Shown here in pieces: positions 13,298-60,298 of a stretch of DNA of 64,000 nucleotides. Both the position numbers and the translations under genes were made by a program. The stretch is from Escherichia phage mogra. The stretch is from sequence record MN850579.1; one strand, 5' to 3'. The notes beneath the pieces were generated by a model. It was not told the origin of the DNA. It ran no database searches and saw only the letters and a program-made list of their open reading frames with translations. The first letter of the stretch is position 1; every line of letters starts with the position of its first letter.

Positions 13298-13786
13298 ATG
13301 AATATATTTGAAATGCTTCGTAATGACGAAGGTCTTAGACTGACTTTATACAAAGACACTGAAGGCTTTTGGACGATTGGCATAGGCCATTTAGTAACAA
13401 AGAACCCGTCTTTAGCCGTAGCTAAAGCTGAACTTGACAGAATGATCGGTCGTAAATGCAACGGTACAATTACCCTTGATGAGGCTGAAAAGCTATTTAA
13501 TGAAGACGTTGATAAAGCCGTTCGCGGAATCTTGGGTAATGCTAAACTTAAACCGGTGTATGATTCTTTAGACGCGGTTCGTCGATGTGCATTGGTCAAT
13601 ATGGTCTTCCAAATGGGTGTAGCAGGCGTCGCTGGTTTTACTAATTCTCTTCGTATGCTTCAACAGAAACGTTGGGACGAAGCGGCAGTAAATCTAGCCC
13701 AATCTAAATGGTATCGTCAGACACCTAATCGCGCGAAACGCGTAATCTCAACATTTAAAACAGGAACTTGGAAAGCGTATATATGA
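13298..13786 (+). CDS. e: lysozyme (endolysin) gp e
   Basis: [23 protein letters not shown]; near-identical to T4 lysozyme; SD ggaggt. Confidence 0.95.
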
Positions 13787-16753: not shown

Positions 16754-17116
16754 ATGAAAGCATATCAAATTCTTGAAGGTACACATAAAGGCACTATTTA
16801 TTTTGAAGACGGTACTCAAGCCCGGATTATCGTCTCTAAGACTTTTAAAGAAGACTCTATTGTAGACCCGGAAATTTTCTACGGTTTGCATGCCCGTGAA
16901 ATTGAAATTGAACATCAACCTAAAGTTAAAATTGAAGGTGGTCAACATCTGAACGTTAACGTTCTGCGTCGTGAAACTCTGGAAGATGCAGTTAAGCATC
17001 CGGAAAAATATCCGCAGCTGACCATCCGTGTATCCGGTTATGCAGTTCGCTTTAACTCTCTGACTCCGGAACAGCAGCGCGACGTTATCGCTCGTACCTT
17101 TACTGAGAGTCTATAA
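16754..17116 (+). CDS. autonomous glycyl-radical cofactor (GrcA/YfiD-like; T4 Y06I-type)
   Basis: C-terminus [33 protein letters not shown] is the pyruvate formate-lyase / GrcA glycyl radical motif. Confidence 0.85.
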
Positions 17117-17340
17117 TGGCTAAATTGATTATAGAAGGGTCTGAAGATGTTTTAAAATGTTTTGCCGCCTGGTTTAGTTGCTCAGGCGAGCAATCATTCA
17201 TTGAAGCATTTAGAACGGGTGATATTACTGGAAACTATCCGACAACTGATATCACTGTACGTGGATATGGTATTAATGAGCCTATCCAATTGGTCGAATA
17301 TGACCTTGCCACCGATGAGGAAATTCCTTATGTCGATTGA
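17116..17340 (+). CDS. hypothetical protein
   Basis: TAATG coupling to upstream gene; 74 aa. Confidence 0.5.
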   Translation: MAKLIIEGSEDVLKCFAAWFSCSGEQSFIEAFRTGDITGNYPTTDITVRGYGINEPIQLVEYDLATDEEIPYVD

Positions 17341-17596
17341 AGACATCAAAGGCTACAAGCCACATACCGACGATAAAATCAGTAAAGTGAACGCTATTAA
17401 AGATGCAGAAGTCCGTCTTGGATTGATGTTTGATGCTCTGATTGAAGAAGCATATATCTTTAAAGAAAATGAAACAGAGCAACAAACCAAAGAAGATATG
17501 GATGCAGTGCAGGCTCTTAAGTATGCTAAGCAACATCTAAAAGAAGCCAGCATGTGGGCATGTCGTGCAGTATTTCGACCTGAGGAAAAATACTAA
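17330..17596 (+). CDS. hypothetical protein
   Basis: Internal ATG chosen; the long N-terminal extension of the listed ORF overlaps the upstream gene. Confidence 0.45.
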
Positions 17597-17895
17597 TGGC
17601 TCAAATCCTATCAGGCTTTGGAACTCATTATGAAGCATCTAGACGCATAACTGAAAGCAATCCTTTTGGCCTTGTTCCGAAGCACAAGAAAATTCAAAGC
17701 CTTGATGACTTTGAGAACCGCCTATGGGCCCTCTTTAATGAGTACAAGGCATATCTGAAAGAAGACGCTGACTATTGTCTTGAAGAAGATGAGATTGCGT
17801 ATTACGAACAACGCCTTGAACAGCTCAAGAACTTCCGTCAGGTTCGTGACGAAGTATCTAAAGCAGTTAAAAAGTTAATTCCTTTCAAAGAGTAG
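17596..17895 (+). CDS. hypothetical protein
   Basis: ATG overlapping upstream stop; 99 aa. Confidence 0.5.
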
Positions 17896-17945
17896 TTTAC
17901 TTCTCCTCTAGTTGTGTTACTATAGACTTGTCAACTAGAGGAGAA
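17895..17945 (+). promoter_or_regulatory. early promoter inside a 14 bp perfect inverted repeat whose 3-prime arm carries the SD
   Basis: GTTTAC 17895; arms TTCTCCTCTAGTTG 17901-17914 and CAACTAGAGGAGAA 17932-17945; TACTAT in loop. Confidence 0.6.
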
Positions 17946-17951
17946 ATCAAA

Positions 17952-18410
17952 ATGACTATCAATTCGGAAGTTTTTATCCGCCGTAATAAACTCCGTCGAA
18001 TCTTTGAAACGGAGTTCCGCAAAATAAATGCCGGTATAAAAGATGCTGCAAAGTCTCTTGGACTACCAGGCTTTCATATCAAGTATTCTCAACATCTCTT
18101 AGATCGTGCCATCCAGAGAGAAATAGATGAGAATTACGTTTTTGAATTATTTCATAAAGTAAAAAATCATGTTAAAGAAGTTGCAGAATTTTTATCAATG
18201 CCGGCACGTCCGGATGTTGATGAAGATTTTGTCGAAGGTGTCGAATATCGCCCAGGCCGTTTAGAAATAACTGATGGAAATCTTTGGTTAGGACTTACAG
18301 TTTGTCGCGAAAATCCAGCATTCAAAATGAAGACTCTTCAATGCAGAATGGCTATTATTAACAGTAAACGACTACCAGGAAAAGCTTCTAAAGCAGTGAT
18401 TAAAATCTAG
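17952..18410 (+). CDS. possible RegB endoribonuclease
   Basis: 152 aa, T4 RegB-like size and position between the vs-region and SLT-like gene; no motif confirmation. Confidence 0.4.
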   Translation: MTINSEVFIRRNKLRRIFETEFRKINAGIKDAAKSLGLPGFHIKYSQHLLDRAIQREIDENYVFELFHKVKNHVKEVAEFLSMPARPDVDEDFVEGVEYRPGRLEITDGNLWLGLTVCRENPAFKMKTLQCRMAIINSKRLPGKASKAVIKI

Positions 18411-18418
18411 AGGTAAAC

Positions 18419-18961
18419 ATGAGAAAAGCACTACTCGCTGGTCTATTTGCTCTTTCGTTATCAGCACATAGCTCCGAGCATACTTTTAGTAATGTCCAAC
18501 TCGATAACTTGAATTATGCTTATCAGTTTGGGGAACAGTTTTCTAAGGATGGAAAATTTAAAACGCATGAAAATATGCATAAGAAAGGACTTGGATACAT
18601 AATGGCCGCAATACTATGGCAAGAATCATCTGCCGGTATTAATCTTAAAGATAAGAAAGGTCACCATGCGTATGGAATGTTCCAAAACTATCTACCAACA
18701 ATGAGGGCAAGAATTAACCAGCTTGGGTATAATATGACTGATGCCCAAATTAAGAAAATGCTATCTAAGCGGTCTAATTCAACCAGATGGGCTTATATCG
18801 AATTTTCTTATTGGTTAAATATACATAACGGGGATATAAGAAAAGCTATATCCTCATATAATGCTGGATGGAAGACAAGTGCTGGAAGTAAATATGCTTC
18901 TGAAGTCCTAGAAAAGGCTAATTACCTTAAATCAAATAAACTACTGGAAATAAAAGAATGA
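18419..18961 (+). CDS. secreted lytic transglycosylase (SLT domain)
   Basis: Signal peptide MRKALLAGLFALSLSAHS; SLT-like motifs QESSAG, GMFQ, SYNAGW. Confidence 0.6.
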   Translation: MRKALLAGLFALSLSAHSSEHTFSNVQLDNLNYAYQFGEQFSKDGKFKTHENMHKKGLGYIMAAILWQESSAGINLKDKKGHHAYGMFQNYLPTMRARINQLGYNMTDAQIKKMLSKRSNSTRWAYIEFSYWLNIHNGDIRKAISSYNAGWKTSAGSKYASEVLEKANYLKSNKLLEIKE

Positions 18962-19305
18962 CCAAAATGTTGGCTTTAATAGTTGGCTTGGTTTCATTTA
19001 ACGCTCTTGCTAATACTACATATACTGATGTAACGGAGTATACAAACAGAACGGCGTCTGATTATTGTGGTAAAAGTCAAGAGTGTAAAGTAGATTTTTC
19101 ACAAAAATTGTTATACGCTTATAAAGACGGAGAAAAAGATGGGGCGTCTAGTAGGTTCAAGGCGTCTACCTTAATTAAAAGATACTATAAAAAATGGCAA
19201 ATATTAGAATGCTCGGTGGCGGAACCTAAAGATAAGGCAGCATGCAATTCTATGGTGGACCGTCTAGTTGACTCTTATAATAGAGGACTTGCAGCAAGTG
19301 ATTAA
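18958..19305 (+). CDS. secreted protein, function unknown
   Basis: Signal peptide MTKMLALIVGLVSFNALA. Confidence 0.5.
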   Translation: MTKMLALIVGLVSFNALANTTYTDVTEYTNRTASDYCGKSQECKVDFSQKLLYAYKDGEKDGASSRFKASTLIKRYYKKWQILECSVAEPKDKAACNSMVDRLVDSYNRGLAASD

Positions 19306-19765
19306 AAACTATATCAAGGGCGATATTGTCGCCCTGTTTTCTAAAGGTAATAATATTGCTCATGGGTGTAATTGTTTTCATACAATGGGCGCTGGTGTGG
19401 CAGGGCAATTAGCAAAGGCTTATCCAAAAATTCTGGAAGCCGATAAACTTCAAACCGAATTCGGAGACAAGTCTAAACTCGGGACTTATTCGGTTTATGA
19501 AAAATATTTTAAGACCCATAAAGCTTATTGCTTTAATCTTTATACACAGTTTGAGCCGGGACCTAATTTTGAGTACTCTGCTTTAATGAATTGTATAATA
19601 GAATTAAATAAATTCGGAAAGAATAAGATAACAAAGCCTGTAATTTATATGCCAAGAATTGGTGCAGGTATTGGTGGTGGAAACTGGGATGTCATCGAAG
19701 AGATTTTAGATACGTATTCCACTAAACTAGAAATTGTGATTGTTGATTGGGAACCGTTATTATGA
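19298..19765 (+). CDS. macro-domain-like protein (tentative)
   Basis: NCFHTMGAGVAGQL and IGAGIGGG resemble macro-domain glycine motifs; start is GTG/TTG, no in-frame ATG near 5-prime end. Confidence 0.4.
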   Translation: MIKNYIKGDIVALFSKGNNIAHGCNCFHTMGAGVAGQLAKAYPKILEADKLQTEFGDKSKLGTYSVYEKYFKTHKAYCFNLYTQFEPGPNFEYSALMNCIIELNKFGKNKITKPVIYMPRIGAGIGGGNWDVIEEILDTYSTKLEIVIVDWEPLL

Positions 19766-19974
19766 ATATACATTATCCACATCCATATGATCCAAAGAAT
19801 AAGGCAGTAATTATTCGTCAATGGGAACGCATTTGTCGTACCAAATGTCCAATTAATAGTCCACATGATGTAGATAAAGACTACATCGGAACATTCGTTG
19901 AATATACCTTTATTGATAAGAAAGGCCGTAAACAACATGTAGAAGAATATTGCTTAAAGGTGACATGGCTATGA
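19762..19974 (+). CDS. hypothetical protein
   Basis: ATG overlapping upstream stop. Confidence 0.45.
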   Translation: MNIHYPHPYDPKNKAVIIRQWERICRTKCPINSPHDVDKDYIGTFVEYTFIDKKGRKQHVEEYCLKVTWL

Positions 19975-20177
19975 GTCAAACAAAAATTCTTACAGGTGCT
20001 AAATGCGAAAAATGCGAATGGCCTGTAGTTTTTGCTTTATGCAATGACGAAATGGCTTGTGATTTTGATTATTGGTGTTACTGTTCGAACAAAGGTTGTA
20101 GCAATCATAAAGGTGAAGGGTTTTACTCAGGATTTTACCCTTACCCAGATTTCGTTAAAGAAGGTGAACCTAAATGA
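19971..20177 (+). CDS. Cys-rich small protein (putative zinc-binding)
   Basis: CEKCEW..C..C..CYCSNKGC cysteine pattern. Confidence 0.5.
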   Translation: MSQTKILTGAKCEKCEWPVVFALCNDEMACDFDYWCYCSNKGCSNHKGEGFYSGFYPYPDFVKEGEPK

Positions 20178-20356
20178 AATTAACTAAAGAAGAGAAAGCT
20201 AAACTGTTCGAACTTATCCATGACCTATTGGATGAGCAAGCAGCCACCAATGCGTATGATGAATATGCTCCTTTGACGGACGAAGAATATCAAGCATTGT
20301 TGGAATCATTTGACAGGAAAGAACAAGAACTCATTGACTACGTGAATTCACTATAA
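20174..20356 (+). CDS. hypothetical acidic protein
   Basis: ATGA overlap; 60 aa. Confidence 0.45.
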   Translation: MKLTKEEKAKLFELIHDLLDEQAATNAYDEYAPLTDEEYQALLESFDRKEQELIDYVNSL

Positions 20357-20365
20357 GGGACTCTT

Positions 20366-20947
20366 ATGGCTAGTTTAATTTTTACCTATGCCGCTATGAA
20401 CGCTGGTAAGTCTGCTTCATTACTTACTGCCGCACATAACTATAAAGAACGTGGCATGGGTGTATTAGTTCTTAAACCGGCTATTGATACTCGCGATTCA
20501 AAAGGTGAAATAGTCTCTCGTATTGGTATTCGTCAGGACGCCAATATAATTACAAAAGACATGGATATCTTTGAATTCTATAAATGGGCTGCAGCACAAA
20601 AGGATATTCACTGCGTATTTGTTGACGAAGCTCAGTTCTTAACTACTGAAAAGGTGTATCAACTTAGTCGTATTGTTGACGTATACAATGTGCCGGTAAT
20701 GGCATATGGACTACGAACAGATTTTAAAGGTAATCTATTTGAAGGTTCTCAAGCATTAATGGCTATTGCCGATAAGCTTGTTGAACTTAAAGGGGTCTGT
20801 CATTGCGGTAAAAAGGCCACAATGGTAGCTAGAGTCACGGAAGACGGACTTCCAATTACAGATGGCAGTCAAATTGAAATTGGTGATACTGATAGATATG
20901 TGTCATTATGCCGGAAGCATTGGAACGATTTGACAGGGTTGTTATAA
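20366..20947 (+). CDS. tk: thymidine kinase
   Basis: FTYAAMNAGKSASLL P-loop; VDEAQF; C-terminal CHCG..C zinc site. Confidence 0.92.
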   Translation: MASLIFTYAAMNAGKSASLLTAAHNYKERGMGVLVLKPAIDTRDSKGEIVSRIGIRQDANIITKDMDIFEFYKWAAAQKDIHCVFVDEAQFLTTEKVYQLSRIVDVYNVPVMAYGLRTDFKGNLFEGSQALMAIADKLVELKGVCHCGKKATMVARVTEDGLPITDGSQIEIGDTDRYVSLCRKHWNDLTGLL

Positions 20948-20974
20948 ATACTAATATCTAACCAAGAGGTATAT

Positions 20975-21187
20975 ATGCAGCAATTAAACGAAAGACAACT
21001 TCGTAATCTTACTGTAACCCAATTGGATGAAATCCGAAGAGAATTAGGACATTCTATTTCTCATTTAAACGAGGATATCCGTCAAACTGGTTCTAAAGCT
21101 GATTATACACGCAAGCGCAAGCTGGAAAAATACCTCGCAGATGTTAAGGCCGTCCAAAGGCGAAAAATAAATACTGGCCAAAATTAA
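20975..21187 (+). CDS. hypothetical protein (rI.1 position)
   Basis: 70 aa between tk and rI-like gene. Confidence 0.5.
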
Positions 21188-21199
21188 CAGGAGGCCTAT

Positions 21200-21502
21200 A
21201 TGGCCTTAAGAGCGATAGCTGTCATGGCGATGCTGGGGTTTTTTGCAGCAACAACTCCTATCGTTGGTACTGCATATATCGACCCATATTTTGATAACTT
21301 TATGGAATCAGGGATTAAAAACGTATATACTTTGTTTGAAATTCAAAATGTCGAGAATTCTGAAAAATTCTATAAGTATATGGCAAAGCATTACAAAAAT
21401 AGTCCCTGTGATGATGCATTTGAATGTCATGAACAAGGCATAAAAACTGCCAGACAATTTGCCGAGTTCATGAAAATAAAATTAGAGCCTACATCTATCT
21501 AA
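21200..21502 (+). CDS. rI: lysis-inhibition regulator RI-like (antiholin)
   Basis: N-terminal signal-anchor MALRAIAVMAMLGFFAA; 100 aa; next to tk as in T4; resembles recalled T4 RI. Confidence 0.6.
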   Translation: MALRAIAVMAMLGFFAATTPIVGTAYIDPYFDNFMESGIKNVYTLFEIQNVENSEKFYKYMAKHYKNSPCDDAFECHEQGIKTARQFAEFMKIKLEPTSI

Positions 21503-21509
21503 TTTACTA

Positions 21510-21536
21510 GCCCCTTCCGAAAGGTCGGGGCTTTTT
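21510..21536 (+). terminator. rho-independent terminator after rI-like gene
   Basis: GCCCCTTCCGAAAGGTCGGGGC then T5. Confidence 0.7.
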
Positions 21537-21547
21537 GGCATCTATCA

Positions 21548-21599
21548 GTTTACTTCTCCTCAGGTTGTGTTATAGTAAACCTTACTTACTAGAGGAGAA
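21548..21599 (+). promoter_or_regulatory. early promoter with SD-containing inverted repeat (TTCTCCTC/GAGGAGAA)
   Basis: GTTTAC 21548. Confidence 0.5.
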
Positions 21600-21603
21600 C
21601 GTT

Positions 21604-24376: not shown

Positions 24377-24658
24377 ATGAAAAAATTAGTAATTGGTTTA
24401 TTCGCAGTAATGATGGCATTCTCTGTTGGTGCTACCACAGGTGCAACCGGCGGTAGTGCAGGAGCTGGTGGTAACCAGTCTTCTGGGCCTTCCAATGGTT
24501 CGGTAAATGCATCACATTCTCAGGGTATTGAGAATATCAGATCAAGCTATATTAATAGCACGGCCGGACAAGCAACTGAAGCATGGTCAAAGGGCCGAGT
24601 AGTTACTCGCTCCGTATTCTGTGATATGCCTAATTATGTTGCTAAGTGCGATAAGTAA
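24377..24658 (+). CDS. secreted Gly/Ser-rich protein
   Basis: Signal peptide MKKLVIGLFAVMMAFSVGA. Confidence 0.5.
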   Translation: MKKLVIGLFAVMMAFSVGATTGATGGSAGAGGNQSSGPSNGSVNASHSQGIENIRSSYINSTAGQATEAWSKGRVVTRSVFCDMPNYVAKCDK

Positions 24659-59262: not shown

Positions 59263-59631
59263 ATGAAAAAATTAATCGCTTTAGCAATGGTATTTGGATT
59301 AACCGGATGTGGTGCCCATGGCTTTATCCCTAATAACGTTGGCCAACTGATTTACAATCCGAATGTTAAACAGTACGACCAACCTAAAGTTGAAGTGGAA
59401 GACCCGGTTACTGTAGGTAATCGAATGATTCAAGCTGATGCTCATGCTCAACGTTATCGTGATTCTGATACTGTAGCATTGTCAAAAGAACAACGCGTTA
59501 AAGAACATTGTCTACAGGCTACTGAAATTGCATTCATTCGCTATGTTGAAACAACTGGTAAAGAGCCTACCCAGAAACAAATCGCGAATAACTACGTCCA
59601 GTGTATTGAACGTTTAAACAAATTTAATTAA
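59263..59631 (+). CDS. lipoprotein
   Basis: Signal peptide with lipobox LTGC. Confidence 0.6.
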   Translation: MKKLIALAMVFGLTGCGAHGFIPNNVGQLIYNPNVKQYDQPKVEVEDPVTVGNRMIQADAHAQRYRDSDTVALSKEQRVKEHCLQATEIAFIRYVETTGKEPTQKQIANNYVQCIERLNKFN

Positions 59632-60004: not shown

Positions 60005-60298
60005 ATGAAAAAGTTATCATTGGCAGCAATCTTACTTGCAGTATCATGTGCACCGGCTCCAGTTACGGCAGGTTATGATAAAGACCTCTGTGAGTGGTCA
60101 ATGACTGCAAATCAAGAAGATGTTGAACAACAAATCTTCTCTGATATCATGAACATCACTAAACGAGACCGTCCTAATATGGTTAATAAAGTTGTTGAAC
60201 AACTTAAGTCTGGCGGTATCATGCAGTACAACTATGTTTTGTATTGTGACCCTAATTTCGATAACAAAGATATCGTAACCGAAATCACAGGTGAATAA
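60005..60298 (+). CDS. secreted protein / probable lipoprotein
   Basis: Signal peptide with lipobox-like AVSC. Confidence 0.55.
   Translation: MKKLSLAAILLAVSCAPAPVTAGYDKDLCEWSMTANQEDVEQQIFSDIMNITKRDRPNMVNKVVEQLKSGGIMQYNYVLYCDPNFDNKDIVTEITGE

What the first reader, a model, noticed from the sequence alone, without database searches (positions are those of the whole stretch)
18419..19765. Secreted lytic transglycosylase, a secreted partner and a macro-domain-like protein upstream of tk
ORF 18419 has a signal peptide and SLT-like motifs, so it is a periplasmic murein-cleaving enzyme distinct from endolysin e. It is followed by another signal-peptide protein and by an ORF with macro-domain-like glycine motifs that lacks an ATG start. 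A macro domain in a phage that uses ADP-ribosylation could erase ADP-ribose marks. The macro assignment is tentative.
Basis: inference. Interest (0 to 1): 0.5.

Follow-up and report, generated by a model that had tools for sequence, protein, structure and literature searches.

The report
Known T4 genes vs.1, vs, tk.4
The interval holds this T4-like phage's copies of three known T4 early genes: an exported cell-wall-cleaving enzyme (vs.1), the small protein called the valyl-tRNA synthetase modifier (vs), and a macrodomain (tk.4/AdfM) that in T4 defeats the DarTG2 DNA-ADP-ribosylating defence, so the finding is real but mostly already known.

Summary
Window 18419-19765 carries three translationally coupled + strand genes, 99% identical at DNA level to sequenced Mosigvirus phages. 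Their proteins are 82%, 68% and 84% identical to T4 Vs.1, Vs and Tk.4.

**The "secreted partner"** is gene vs, annotated as the valyl-tRNA synthetase modifier. It does carry a canonical signal peptide and four invariant cysteines, which conflicts with a cytoplasmic target.

**The macro assignment** is correct (Pfam Macro above threshold). The start is GTG 19298, homologous to T4's ATG. The protein belongs to the Gln-type SCO6735/Bt_1257 branch of TARG1/DarG-like macrodomains.

A 2025 preprint shows T4 tk.4 (renamed adfM) is needed to resist DarTG2. The marks erased are therefore most likely host-made ADP-ribose on phage DNA thymidines, not the phage's own protein marks.

Novelty is low. The open point is Vs: it is predicted to be exported, always follows vs.1 where present (also in an Acinetobacter phage), and in T4 transposon data shares a fitness signature with vs.1.

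The parts
17952..18410 (+). regB (context): site-specific endoribonuclease gene. Its stop lies 8 nt before the vs.1 ATG, and the vs.1 Shine-Dalgarno GAGG sits in TAGAGGTAAACATG.
   Evidence: Pfam REGB_T4 4.9e-69; annotated at the same extent in phage mobillu; junction sequence
18419..18961 (+). vs.1 orthologue: 180 aa precursor of an exported SLT/GH23 lytic-transglycosylase-like protein. The predicted mature protein is 162 aa, 18.7 kDa, pI 9.6.
18419..18472 (+). Predicted Sec signal peptide of Vs.1 (MRKALLAGLFALSLSAHS, cleavage after AHS)
   Evidence: Hydrophobicity and -3/-1 rule; N-terminus conserved in character but not in sequence across 33 homologues; low pLDDT (62-65) for residues 1-20
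18623..18625 (+). Codon of Glu69, the predicted catalytic acid/base of Vs.1 (motif W-Q-E-S-S)
   Evidence: Invariant in 33 homologues; read from the sequence
18958..19305 (+). vs orthologue ('valyl-tRNA synthetase modifier'): 115 aa with a predicted signal peptide (18958-19011, MTKMLALIVGLVSFNALA) and a mature 97 aa, 11.0 kDa four-helix protein with 4 invariant Cys (37, 43, 85, 96). Its start overlaps the vs.1 stop (ATGA).
   Evidence: 68% identical to T4 Vs; phrog_1256 1.8e-35; alignment; AF2 pLDDT 84.5 with residues 1-15 below 50; remote homologues keep the signal peptide and 4 Cys; molecular weights
19298..19765 (+). tk.4 / adfM orthologue: 155 aa single macrodomain with GTG start (SD GAGGA 9 nt upstream). 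It overlaps the vs stop by 8 nt. Key codons: Asn25 19370-19372, Gln84 19547-19549, Gly-rich loop G122-G128.
   Evidence: 84% identical over the full length to T4 Tk.4, which starts with ATG at the same position; Pfam Macro 28.8 bits, above cut-off 22; profile against PDB: Bt_1257 4.7e-18, SCO6735 5.4e-16, TARG1 1.5e-15, DarG 1.4e-11; invariant N25, G33, NxYTQ84, G122, G124
19317..19342 (+). Conserved G+C-rich hairpin (GGGCGAUAUUGUCGCCC) followed by a U-run, inside codons 7-15 of tk.4 and just after the vs stop. Terminator-like or attenuator-like; function not established.
   Evidence: Terminator scan; -13 kcal/mol, z -2.9; 26 nt identical to T4, and kept in Dhakavirus dhabil with the only change in the loop; annotated as a terminator in phage NBG1
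19762..19974 (+). tk.3 (context): DUF7202 protein. Its ATG overlaps the tk.4 stop (ATGA).
   Evidence: Pfam DUF7202 2.1e-38; junction; same extent in mobillu

Best explanation
The interval is the vs.1-vs-tk.4 segment of the conserved, translationally coupled early-gene block regB-vs.1-vs-tk.4-tk.3-tk.2-tk.1-tk of a T4-type (Mosigvirus-like) phage.

(1) Vs.1 is made with a cleavable Sec signal peptide and released into the periplasm. There it acts as a small GH23/SLT-type peptidoglycan lytic transglycosylase that uses Glu69 as its single acid/base catalyst. It is an accessory enzyme, separate from the holin-dependent endolysin e and non-essential in the laboratory.

(2) Vs, whose start overlaps the vs.1 stop, is the orthologue of the T4 protein named valyl-tRNA synthetase modifier. 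By sequence it is an exported, probably disulfide-bonded, four-helix protein of 11 kDa.

(3) Tk.4 starts at GTG 19298. It is a stand-alone macrodomain of the TARG1/DarG/SCO6735 (ALC1-like) class with the Gln-type active site (Gln84). Like its 84%-identical T4 orthologue AdfM, it most likely protects the phage from the host DarTG2 toxin-antitoxin defence by hydrolysing ADP-ribose from thymidines in phage single-stranded DNA.

Shown here: gene identities, motifs, predicted folds, start codon, synteny. Taken from the literature on T4: the DarTG2 phenotype, non-essentiality, and the vs phenotype in minimal medium. Inferred: enzymatic activities, export, and the DNA substrate for this phage.
For: Identity and synteny:
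- 99% DNA identity to sequenced Mosigvirus phages.
- 82%, 68% and 84% protein identity to T4 Vs.1, Vs and Tk.4, with the same order in T4, Dhakavirus and a Klebsiella phage.

Vs.1:
- Invariant E69/S71/G86/Q89/N90/Y147/N148/G150.
- SLT hit in 31 of 33 homologues.
- Confident model.
- Signal-peptide features.

Tk.4:
- Pfam Macro above its cut-off.
- PDB profile hits to Bt_1257, SCO6735, TARG1 and DarG.
- Invariant Gln84 aligns with SCO6735 Gln85 and TARG1 Lys84. Q85A abolishes removal of thymidine-linked ADP-ribose by SCO6735 (PMC9411070).
- T4 tk.4 was the single significant hit in a DarTG2 transposon screen, and its clean knockout is DarTG2-sensitive (bioRxiv 10.1101/2025.11.20.689424).
- PhiKZ AdfM removes ADP-ribose from DarT2-modified DNA in vitro (PMC13309987).

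All three genes are non-essential in T4.
Against: - No activity has been measured for any of the three proteins of this phage, and none for Vs.1 of any phage as far as the searched literature shows.
- Vs.1 itself scores below the Pfam SLT gathering threshold (19.4 against 21.3 bits). Sequence searches against the PDB find nothing meaningful.
- GH23 also contains hydrolytic g-type lysozymes and a chitinase, so the reaction type is inferred only.
- Signal peptides were judged by simple rules and conservation, not by a trained predictor.
- The AdfM work is a preprint on T4, not this phage, and the T4 enzyme's activity on DNA was proposed there, not shown.
- Tk.4 lacks the Lys of DarG/TARG1.
- For Vs, predicted export contradicts the cytoplasmic function implied by its name.
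Confidence: 0.78

Rival explanations
1. Vs.1 and Vs form a two-part periplasmic module. Vs is exported, its four cysteines are oxidised, and it binds, regulates or targets the lytic transglycosylase Vs.1 (or the same cell-wall substrate). Its textbook role as a cytoplasmic valyl-tRNA synthetase modifier would then be a wrong ORF assignment, an association formed after cell breakage, or a second function.
For: - A canonical signal peptide with variable sequence, plus 4 invariant Cys, in every homologue, including an Acinetobacter phage homologue (hhalign 90.7% probability, E 1.2e-6).
- Wherever a Vs homologue was found it directly follows vs.1: the reading frames overlap in this window, T4 and Acinetobacter phage Berthold and abut in Dhakavirus and the Klebsiella phage. 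GenBank annotators of Berthold flagged periplasmic secretion signals on vs.1, the Vs-like ORF, two further ORFs and rI.
- In T4 transposon data, vs and vs.1 insertions have roughly 7- to 29-fold lower counts than flanking genes after growth in LB (26.6 and 22.6 against 178.6, 289.6 and 652). Both drop further in M9 and on strain CFE299, whereas regB and tk.4 do not.
- The mature size of 11.0 kDa fits the roughly 10 kDa recalled for the classical factor (from memory, not checked).
- N-terminally tagged full-length T4 Vs is insoluble in the cytoplasm (PMC8076793).
Against: - The classical literature, recalled and cited second-hand, reports that the vs product binds host valyl-tRNA synthetase and changes its properties. 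The primary papers could not be read.
- vs.1 occurs without any Vs-like neighbour in Aeromonas and Slopekvirus phages and in many more phage records (2060 against 795), so Vs.1 does not need Vs.
- The shared fitness signature could be a polar effect of vs.1 insertions on vs.
- No complex prediction or fold match was obtained for Vs.
Confidence: 0.35
2. One reading: Tk.4 reverses protein (or RNA) ADP-ribosylation installed by the phage's own transferases (Alt, ModA, ModB), tuning or erasing those marks during infection.
For: - T4-type phages do carry such transferases (general knowledge; PMC9503650).
- SCO6735 and TARG1, relatives of Tk.4, also act on protein substrates.
Against: - In T4 the only condition found in which tk.4 mattered was the presence of DarTG2. 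It was dispensable on plain K-12 in LB and M9, where Alt/Mod act.
- Tk.4 homologues occur in 2840 phage records of many families, including Felixounavirus-size and Pseudomonas phages. That is wider than would be expected for Alt/Mod partners, although co-occurrence was not tested.
Confidence: 0.1
3. The legacy annotation: Tk.4 is a small-molecule 'phosphatase' (ADP-ribose-1''-phosphate phosphatase like yeast Poa1p) or an O-acetyl-ADP-ribose deacetylase, clearing NAD-derived metabolites rather than macromolecular marks.
For: - PDB hits to Poa1p (6lfu, 1.2e-8 with the single sequence; 5.2e-12 with the profile).
- Named 'phosphatase' in PHROG 335 and in RefSeq T4.
- A1pp match reported in 2006 (PMC1524935).
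Against: - Closer matches are Bt_1257 and SCO6735, with the SCO6735-type invariant Gln.
- The genetic phenotype in T4 is specific to DarTG2.
- No Tpt1/KptA-type source of Appr-1''-p was looked for or seen.
Confidence: 0.07

Closest known systems
Phage T4 Tk.4 = AdfM (anti-DarT factor, macrodomain)
   Same: - 84% identical over all 155 residues.
- Same position between vs and tk.3.
- Same invariant Asn25, Gly loops and Gln84.
   Different: GTG instead of ATG start, and an 8-nt instead of a 4-nt overlap with vs. The function has been tested only in T4.
SCO6735 (Streptomyces coelicolor) / Bt_1257 subclass of ALC1-like macrodomains; DarG and human TARG1
   Same: - Same fold class by profile (E 5e-16 to 1e-11).
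- Gln at the position of SCO6735 Gln85, which is essential for removing thymidine-linked ADP-ribose.
   Different: - Not a toxin-antitoxin component: no DarT neighbour and no C-terminal DarT-binding domain.
- Lacks DarG Lys80 / TARG1 Lys84 and TARG1 Asp125 (Gly here).
- The loop after Gln84 is shorter than in Bt_1257 and SCO6735, which carry a 5-6-residue insertion in the profile alignment. SCO6735 Lys89/Lys93 were not mapped onto Tk.4.
Family 1 lytic transglycosylases (Slt70, MltC, MltE, MltF catalytic domain, EtgA), GH23
   Same: - E-S, G-x-x-Q and Y-N-x-G motifs.
- Periplasmic location.
   Different: - Only about 160 residues, with no superhelical, LysM or lipid anchor modules.
- Very divergent: below the Pfam SLT threshold and 14-19% identity to solved structures.
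- Encoded as an early phage gene and exported by Sec independently of the holin.
Phage T4 Vs (valyl-tRNA synthetase modifier; PHROG 1256, Pfam PF26829)
   Same: - 68% identical.
- Same length, cysteines, signal-peptide-like N-terminus and position after vs.1.
   Different: Nothing substantive. The oddity (export signal against a cytoplasmic target) applies to T4 Vs as well.
T4 spackle and RI (known Sec-exported or periplasmic T4 early proteins)
   Same: Small early-gene products with N-terminal export signals. Both are encoded in this window and both were picked up by the same crude rule.
   Different: No sequence relationship. Spackle inhibits gp5 lysozyme and RI senses superinfection; no such role has been shown for Vs.1 or Vs.

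Membership tests
SLT / GH23 family-1 lytic transglycosylase (Pfam PF01464) | Catalytic Glu followed by Ser (E-S motif) | tested here: met
   W-Q-E69-S-S; E69 and S71 are invariant in 33 homologues
SLT / GH23 family-1 lytic transglycosylase (Pfam PF01464) | Second and third signature motifs (G-L-M-Q-like and A-Y-N-x-G) | tested here: met
   G86-M-F-Q89-N90 and S-Y147-N148-A-G150, invariant at G86, Q89, N90, Y147, N148 and G150
SLT / GH23 family-1 lytic transglycosylase (Pfam PF01464) | Score at or above the Pfam gathering threshold | tested here: not met
   19.4 bits against a cut-off of 21.3 for this protein. However, 31 of 33 family members hit SLT at E <= 0.01, best 1.3e-7.
SLT / GH23 family-1 lytic transglycosylase (Pfam PF01464) | Lysozyme-like all-helical GH23 fold | tested here: met
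SLT / GH23 family-1 lytic transglycosylase (Pfam PF01464) | Cleaves MurNAc-GlcNAc bonds and forms 1,6-anhydroMurNAc | not testable with these tools
   Needs a zymogram and HPLC/MS of sacculus digests with the mature protein and an E69Q control
Sec-exported periplasmic protein (Vs.1 and Vs) | N-terminal signal peptide: basic n-region, 10-15 uncharged hydrophobic residues, small residues at -3/-1 | tested here: met
   Rule-based only. The pattern is conserved with variable sequence in homologues. The same rule recovers spackle and RI. No trained predictor was available.
Macro domain (Pfam PF01661), ALC1-like / TARG1-DarG-SCO6735 class | Pfam gathering threshold, plus the N-x(5,6)-G-x-G and G-x-G-x-G ADP-ribose-binding loops | tested here: met
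   28.8 bits against a cut-off of 22; N25, G31, G33, G122 and G124 conserved; PDB profile hits at E 4.7e-18 to 1.4e-11
Macro domain, SCO6735/Bt_1257 Gln-type subclass | Gln at the position of SCO6735 Gln85 (essential for ADPr-thymidine hydrolysis) | tested here: met
   Invariant N-x-Y-T-Q84 aligns with N-M-I-G-Q of Bt_1257 and SCO6735 in the profile alignment. The role of Gln85 comes from PMC9411070.
DarG antitoxin / TARG1 | Catalytic Lys (DarG K80, TARG1 K84), TARG1 Asp125, and for DarG a partner darT gene and a DarT-binding C-terminal domain | tested here: not met
   Gln84 replaces the Lys and Gly replaces Asp125. The protein is a 155 aa single domain, and the neighbours are vs and tk.3.
AdfM (phage anti-DarT2 macrodomain) | Orthology to T4 tk.4 | tested here: met
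   84% identity over the full length, with the same synteny
AdfM (phage anti-DarT2 macrodomain) | Confers resistance to DarTG2 and removes ADP-ribose from DarT2-modified DNA | not testable with these tools
   Genetic evidence exists for T4 only and biochemical evidence for PhiKZ AdfM only
Vs, valyl-tRNA synthetase modifier (PHROG 1256 / PF26829) | Sequence membership | tested here: met
   phrog_1256 1.8e-35; 68% identical to T4 Vs; homologues carry PF26829
Vs, valyl-tRNA synthetase modifier (PHROG 1256 / PF26829) | Binds and modifies cytoplasmic host ValRS, which requires a cytoplasmic location | tested here: inconclusive
   Binding cannot be tested here. The predicted signal peptide and 4 invariant Cys argue for export, which conflicts with the named function.

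The most novel reading that the evidence does not exclude
The protein that has carried the name 'valyl-tRNA synthetase modifier' (Vs) since the 1970s-80s is really a Sec-exported, disulfide-bonded periplasmic protein. It works together with the adjacent exported lytic transglycosylase Vs.1 as a conserved two-gene cell-envelope module, found in Tevenvirinae and in Acinetobacter Twarogvirinae. The ValRS link would then be a mis-assigned ORF, a post-lysis association or a side activity. The minimal-medium defect of T4 vs mutants would be an envelope phenotype.
Probability: 0.3. Interest if true: 0.6.

Novelty: already known. Interest (0 to 1): 0.3.

Why it matters
As filed, the finding mainly re-discovers annotated T4 genes.

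- The SLT-like nature of vs.1 and the A1pp/macro nature of tk.4 were reported by 2006.
- The anti-DarTG2 role of tk.4 (AdfM) was reported in 2025.

The practical value is in annotation:
- The tk.4 start is fixed at GTG 19298. Some GenBank records truncate the protein at Met30, which removes the active-site Asn.
- Tk.4 can be placed in the Gln-type SCO6735 subclass, which predicts a catalytic mechanism different from DarG.
- Several database names are shown to be wrong ('endoribonuclease' for vs.1, 'valyl-tRNA synthetase' for vs, 'ABC transporter' for tk.3).

The one point that could matter more is Vs. A classical T4 protein with a cytoplasmic function on paper looks in every homologue like an exported partner of a periplasmic murein enzyme, and it shares that enzyme's fitness signature in T4 transposon data. 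Resolving this is cheap and would either correct a textbook assignment or reveal an unusual dual localisation.

Tried and rejected
- **Vs.1 against PDB sequences.** The single-sequence search found nothing. The profile search gave only chance hits to metacaspase and Sgm methylase (E 0.13-0.7). The fold search was needed instead.
- **Vs against solved structures.** Foldseek on the Vs model gave no match better than E 0.6. The PDB sequence search gave one chance antibody hit. The local Pfam copy has no Vs family.
- **Remote Vs homologues.** The profile search of 1.84 billion representatives gave only 7 hits, all the same small family. No link to any characterised protein emerged.
- **Promoter scan of 17000-21600.** 15 sites against 16.1 expected from shuffles, so uninformative.
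- **Primary literature on vs and the T4 genome review.** Not held. Searches for a signal peptide on Vs found nothing relevant. Two literature searches failed on term length.
- **TTG 19268 or TTG 19289 as the tk.4 start.** Rejected. T4 has an in-frame TAG immediately before its ATG at the position of GTG 19298. The SD GAGGA is 9 nt from the GTG and 0 nt from TTG 19289.
- **Met30 start (as annotated in phage NBG1).** Rejected. Residues 1-29 are conserved at protein level and contain the invariant G23 and N25.
- **SAR (signal-anchor-release) domain for Vs.1.** Considered unlikely because the h-region is only about 13 residues and is followed by an A-H-S site. Not tested further.
Full report
**What the window is.** The 2.5 kb around the finding is 99% identical to sequenced Escherichia phages of the T4 type (F27, mobillu, NBG1, mar005P1; genus Mosigvirus where classified). 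It matches 657 phage records in all. Compared with the annotated mobillu record and with T4 itself, the + strand gene order is regB, vs.1, vs, tk.4, tk.3, tk.2, tk.1, tk, rI.1, rI. The finding's coordinates 18419-19765 run exactly from the vs.1 start to the tk.4 stop.

**Observation check.** The three ORFs exist. Their proteins are 82%, 68% and 84% identical to T4 Vs.1, Vs and Tk.4. The junctions show tight coupling:
- The regB stop is followed by GAGG and the vs.1 ATG.
- The vs ATG overlaps the vs.1 TGA (ATGA).
- The tk.4 GTG overlaps the vs TAA.
- The tk.3 ATG overlaps the tk.4 TGA.

A crude signal-peptide rule (K/R near the N-terminus, 10-15 uncharged hydrophobic residues, small residues at -3/-1) hits only 7 of 129 ATG ORFs of 60 aa or more on this strand. 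These include vs.1 and vs, and also the known periplasmic proteins RI (21200) and spackle (60005), which validates the rule. Endolysin e is a separate gene at 13298-13786.

**Vs.1.** On its own the protein only grazes Pfam SLT (E 7.8e-4, 19.4 bits against a cut-off of 21.3). This is the same marginal result reported for T4 and five relatives in 2006 (PMC1524935). Stronger evidence comes from several directions:
- In an alignment of 33 homologues down to 38% identity, the residues of the three family-1 lytic transglycosylase motifs are invariant: E69 and S71, G86/Q89/N90, and Y147/N148/G150.
- 31 of the 33 homologues hit SLT individually.
- An AlphaFold2 model is confident (pLDDT 89.7).

The N-terminal 18-20 residues are hydrophobic in every homologue but not conserved in sequence, as expected of a signal peptide. 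Homologues occur in 2060 phage records, well beyond T4-like phages. No experimental work on Vs.1 was found. In T4 it is non-essential.

**Vs.** The "secreted partner" is gene vs: PHROG 'valyl tRNA synthetase modifier' at 1.8e-35, with homologues carrying PF26829.
- The family is small. There are 8 clusters in the 5.8-billion-protein set and 7 representatives among 1.84 billion, found in 795 phage records.
- Every member has a canonical signal peptide (for example ...SFNALA|N here and ...SASASA|D in T4) and four invariant cysteines arranged CX5C and CX10C.
- The model is a four-helix bundle with the cysteine pairs at the two hairpin turns and an unstructured N-terminus. No structural relative was found.
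- The mature protein would be 11.0 kDa.

This picture of an exported, disulfide-bonded protein conflicts with the cytoplasmic target implied by its name. The classical papers could not be read. They are cited second-hand as showing binding to host ValRS. That same study found N-terminally tagged full-length Vs insoluble.

Two further observations link Vs to Vs.1.

First, wherever Vs was found it directly follows vs.1: in this window, T4, Dhakavirus, a Klebsiella phage, and Acinetobacter phage Berthold of another subfamily. The reading frames overlap in this window, T4 and Berthold and abut in the other two. The Berthold Vs-like ORF is a remote homologue (hhalign probability 90.7%, E 1.2e-6). 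The GenBank annotators of Berthold flagged periplasmic secretion signals on vs.1, the Vs-like ORF, two more ORFs and rI.

Second, in the T4 HIDEN-SEQ supplementary tables:
- After competition in LB, vs and vs.1 insertions have mean counts of 26.6 and 22.6, against 178.6 (regB), 289.6 (tk.4) and 652 (vs.3).
- From LB to M9, vs drops with log2FC -2.19 (adjusted p 0) and vs.1 with -0.87 (p 0.0055, adjusted 0.155).
- On strain CFE299, vs.1 drops with -1.20 (adjusted p 0.015) and vs with -1.04 (not significant).

Polarity of vs.1 insertions on vs cannot be excluded. Against an obligate partnership, Aeromonas and Slopekvirus phages have vs.1 with no Vs-like neighbour. I keep the textbook name as the identification but treat the localisation conflict as unexplained.

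**Tk.4.**
- *Start codon.* The ORF has no ATG before Met30. T4 has ATG exactly where this phage has GTG 19298, with an in-frame TAG just upstream. The first 29 residues are conserved and include the invariant G23 and N25. GAGGA lies 9 nt upstream. The start is therefore GTG 19298. The TTG that opens the ORF and the Met30 start used in phage NBG1 are both rejected.
- *Domain.* Pfam Macro is above threshold (28.8 against 22 bits). With a profile of 32 homologues the best PDB matches are Bt_1257 (4.7e-18), SCO6735 (5.4e-16), TARG1 (1.5e-15), Poa1p (5e-12) and DarG (1.4e-11).
- *Active site.* The invariant motif N-x-Y-T-Q84 aligns with the Gln of Bt_1257 and SCO6735 and with Lys84 of TARG1. TARG1 Asp125 is Gly here. 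SCO6735 removes DarT-made ADP-ribose from thymidine in DNA, and its Q85A mutant is dead. That Gln distinguishes its subclass from DarG and TARG1 (PMC9411070).
- *Function in T4.* A 2025 preprint found tk.4 as the single significant hit when a T4 transposon library was grown on a DarTG2 host. A clean deletion was DarTG2-sensitive, and the gene was renamed adfM. Hydrolysis of DNA-linked ADP-ribose was proposed there, not shown.
- *Related enzyme.* A DarG2-like macrodomain protein of phage PhiKZ, also named AdfM, removes ADP-ribose from DarT2-modified TNTC DNA in vitro (PMC13309987). It was not compared with Tk.4 here.

The macro assignment is therefore solid. The most likely substrate is host-inflicted DNA ADP-ribosylation rather than the phage's own Alt/Mod marks. 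In T4, tk.4 was dispensable on plain K-12 in LB and M9. The old 'phosphatase' label reflects similarity to Poa1p and is the less likely activity.

**Comparison with known systems and novelty.** All three genes are known, named T4 genes, and near-identical copies are in GenBank. The SLT and A1pp/macro similarities were published in 2006 and the AdfM function in 2025. What this analysis adds:
- the fold-level confirmation of Vs.1;
- the placement of Tk.4/AdfM in the Gln-type SCO6735 subclass, so it is not a DarG-type Lys enzyme and not a DarG antitoxin (no DarT neighbour, no C-terminal domain);
- the start-codon correction;
- the documented conflict over Vs.

**Side observation.** A stable hairpin followed by a U-run lies at 19317-19342, inside tk.4 codons 7-15 and 12 nt after the vs stop.
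- It is identical over 26 nt in T4.
- It is kept in Dhakavirus dhabil, where the only change is in the loop.
- It is absent in a Klebsiella phage whose protein sequence differs there.
- It is annotated as a terminator in NBG1.

It may end or attenuate regB-vs.1-vs transcripts before tk.4. This was not tested.

**Verdict.** The feature is real but already known, so interest is low. The one modest exception is the open question of whether Vs is a periplasmic partner of Vs.1.

Noticed in passing
window 19317-19342 (+), inside tk.4 codons 7-15: G+C-rich hairpin GGGCGAUAUUGUCGCCC plus a U-run, terminator-like, 12 nt after the vs stop. It is identical over 26 nt in T4, including synonymous sites. 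It is kept in Dhakavirus dhabil with the only change in the loop, and it is absent in Klebsiella phage kv_tblp2. It could terminate or attenuate transcription between vs and tk.4.
   Followed up: partly
L003 (MH243438.1, phage NBG1) 1608-2066; window 19298-19384: Some GenBank records start tk.4 at Met30 and annotate the hairpin as an intergenic terminator. This cuts off 29 conserved residues, including the invariant Asn25. Other records use the GTG.
   Followed up: yes
L001 (MN850622.1, phage mobillu) and many hits: Propagated mis-annotations: vs.1 and several vs.x genes are named 'endoribonuclease RegB', tk.3 is named 'putative ABC transporter ATP-binding protein', and vs is named 'valyl-tRNA synthetase' or 'valyl-tRNA ligase' rather than modifier.
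   Followed up: no
T4 data: supplementary file 7 of bioRxiv 10.1101/2025.11.20.689424 (orthologues of window 18419-19305): Transposon insertions in vs.1 and vs have roughly 7- to 29-fold lower counts than those in flanking regB, tk.4 and vs.3 after growth in LB. Both fall further in M9 and on strain CFE299. The preprint discusses only vs.
   Followed up: partly
L006 (NC_049490.1, Acinetobacter phage Berthold) 1438-3284: A run of five consecutive genes with predicted secretion signals: vs.1, a remote Vs homologue, two unknown ORFs and rI. This suggests a periplasmic gene cluster in which vs.1-vs sits next to the lysis-inhibition sensor. tk.4 is not adjacent there.
   Followed up: partly
window 24377-24658 (+) and 59263-59631 (+): Two further small ORFs with export signals and no known function. 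The first is a 93 aa Gly/Ser-rich protein (phrog_2243). The second is a 122 aa protein with a lipobox-like LTGC (phrog_1754), lying about 370 nt upstream of the spackle orthologue at 60005-60298.
   Followed up: no
window 16754-17116 (+): Orthologue of T4 vs.6, a GrcA-like autonomous glycyl-radical cofactor (motif RVSGYAVRF), four genes upstream of regB. Seen only through the annotations of T4 and mobillu.
   Followed up: no
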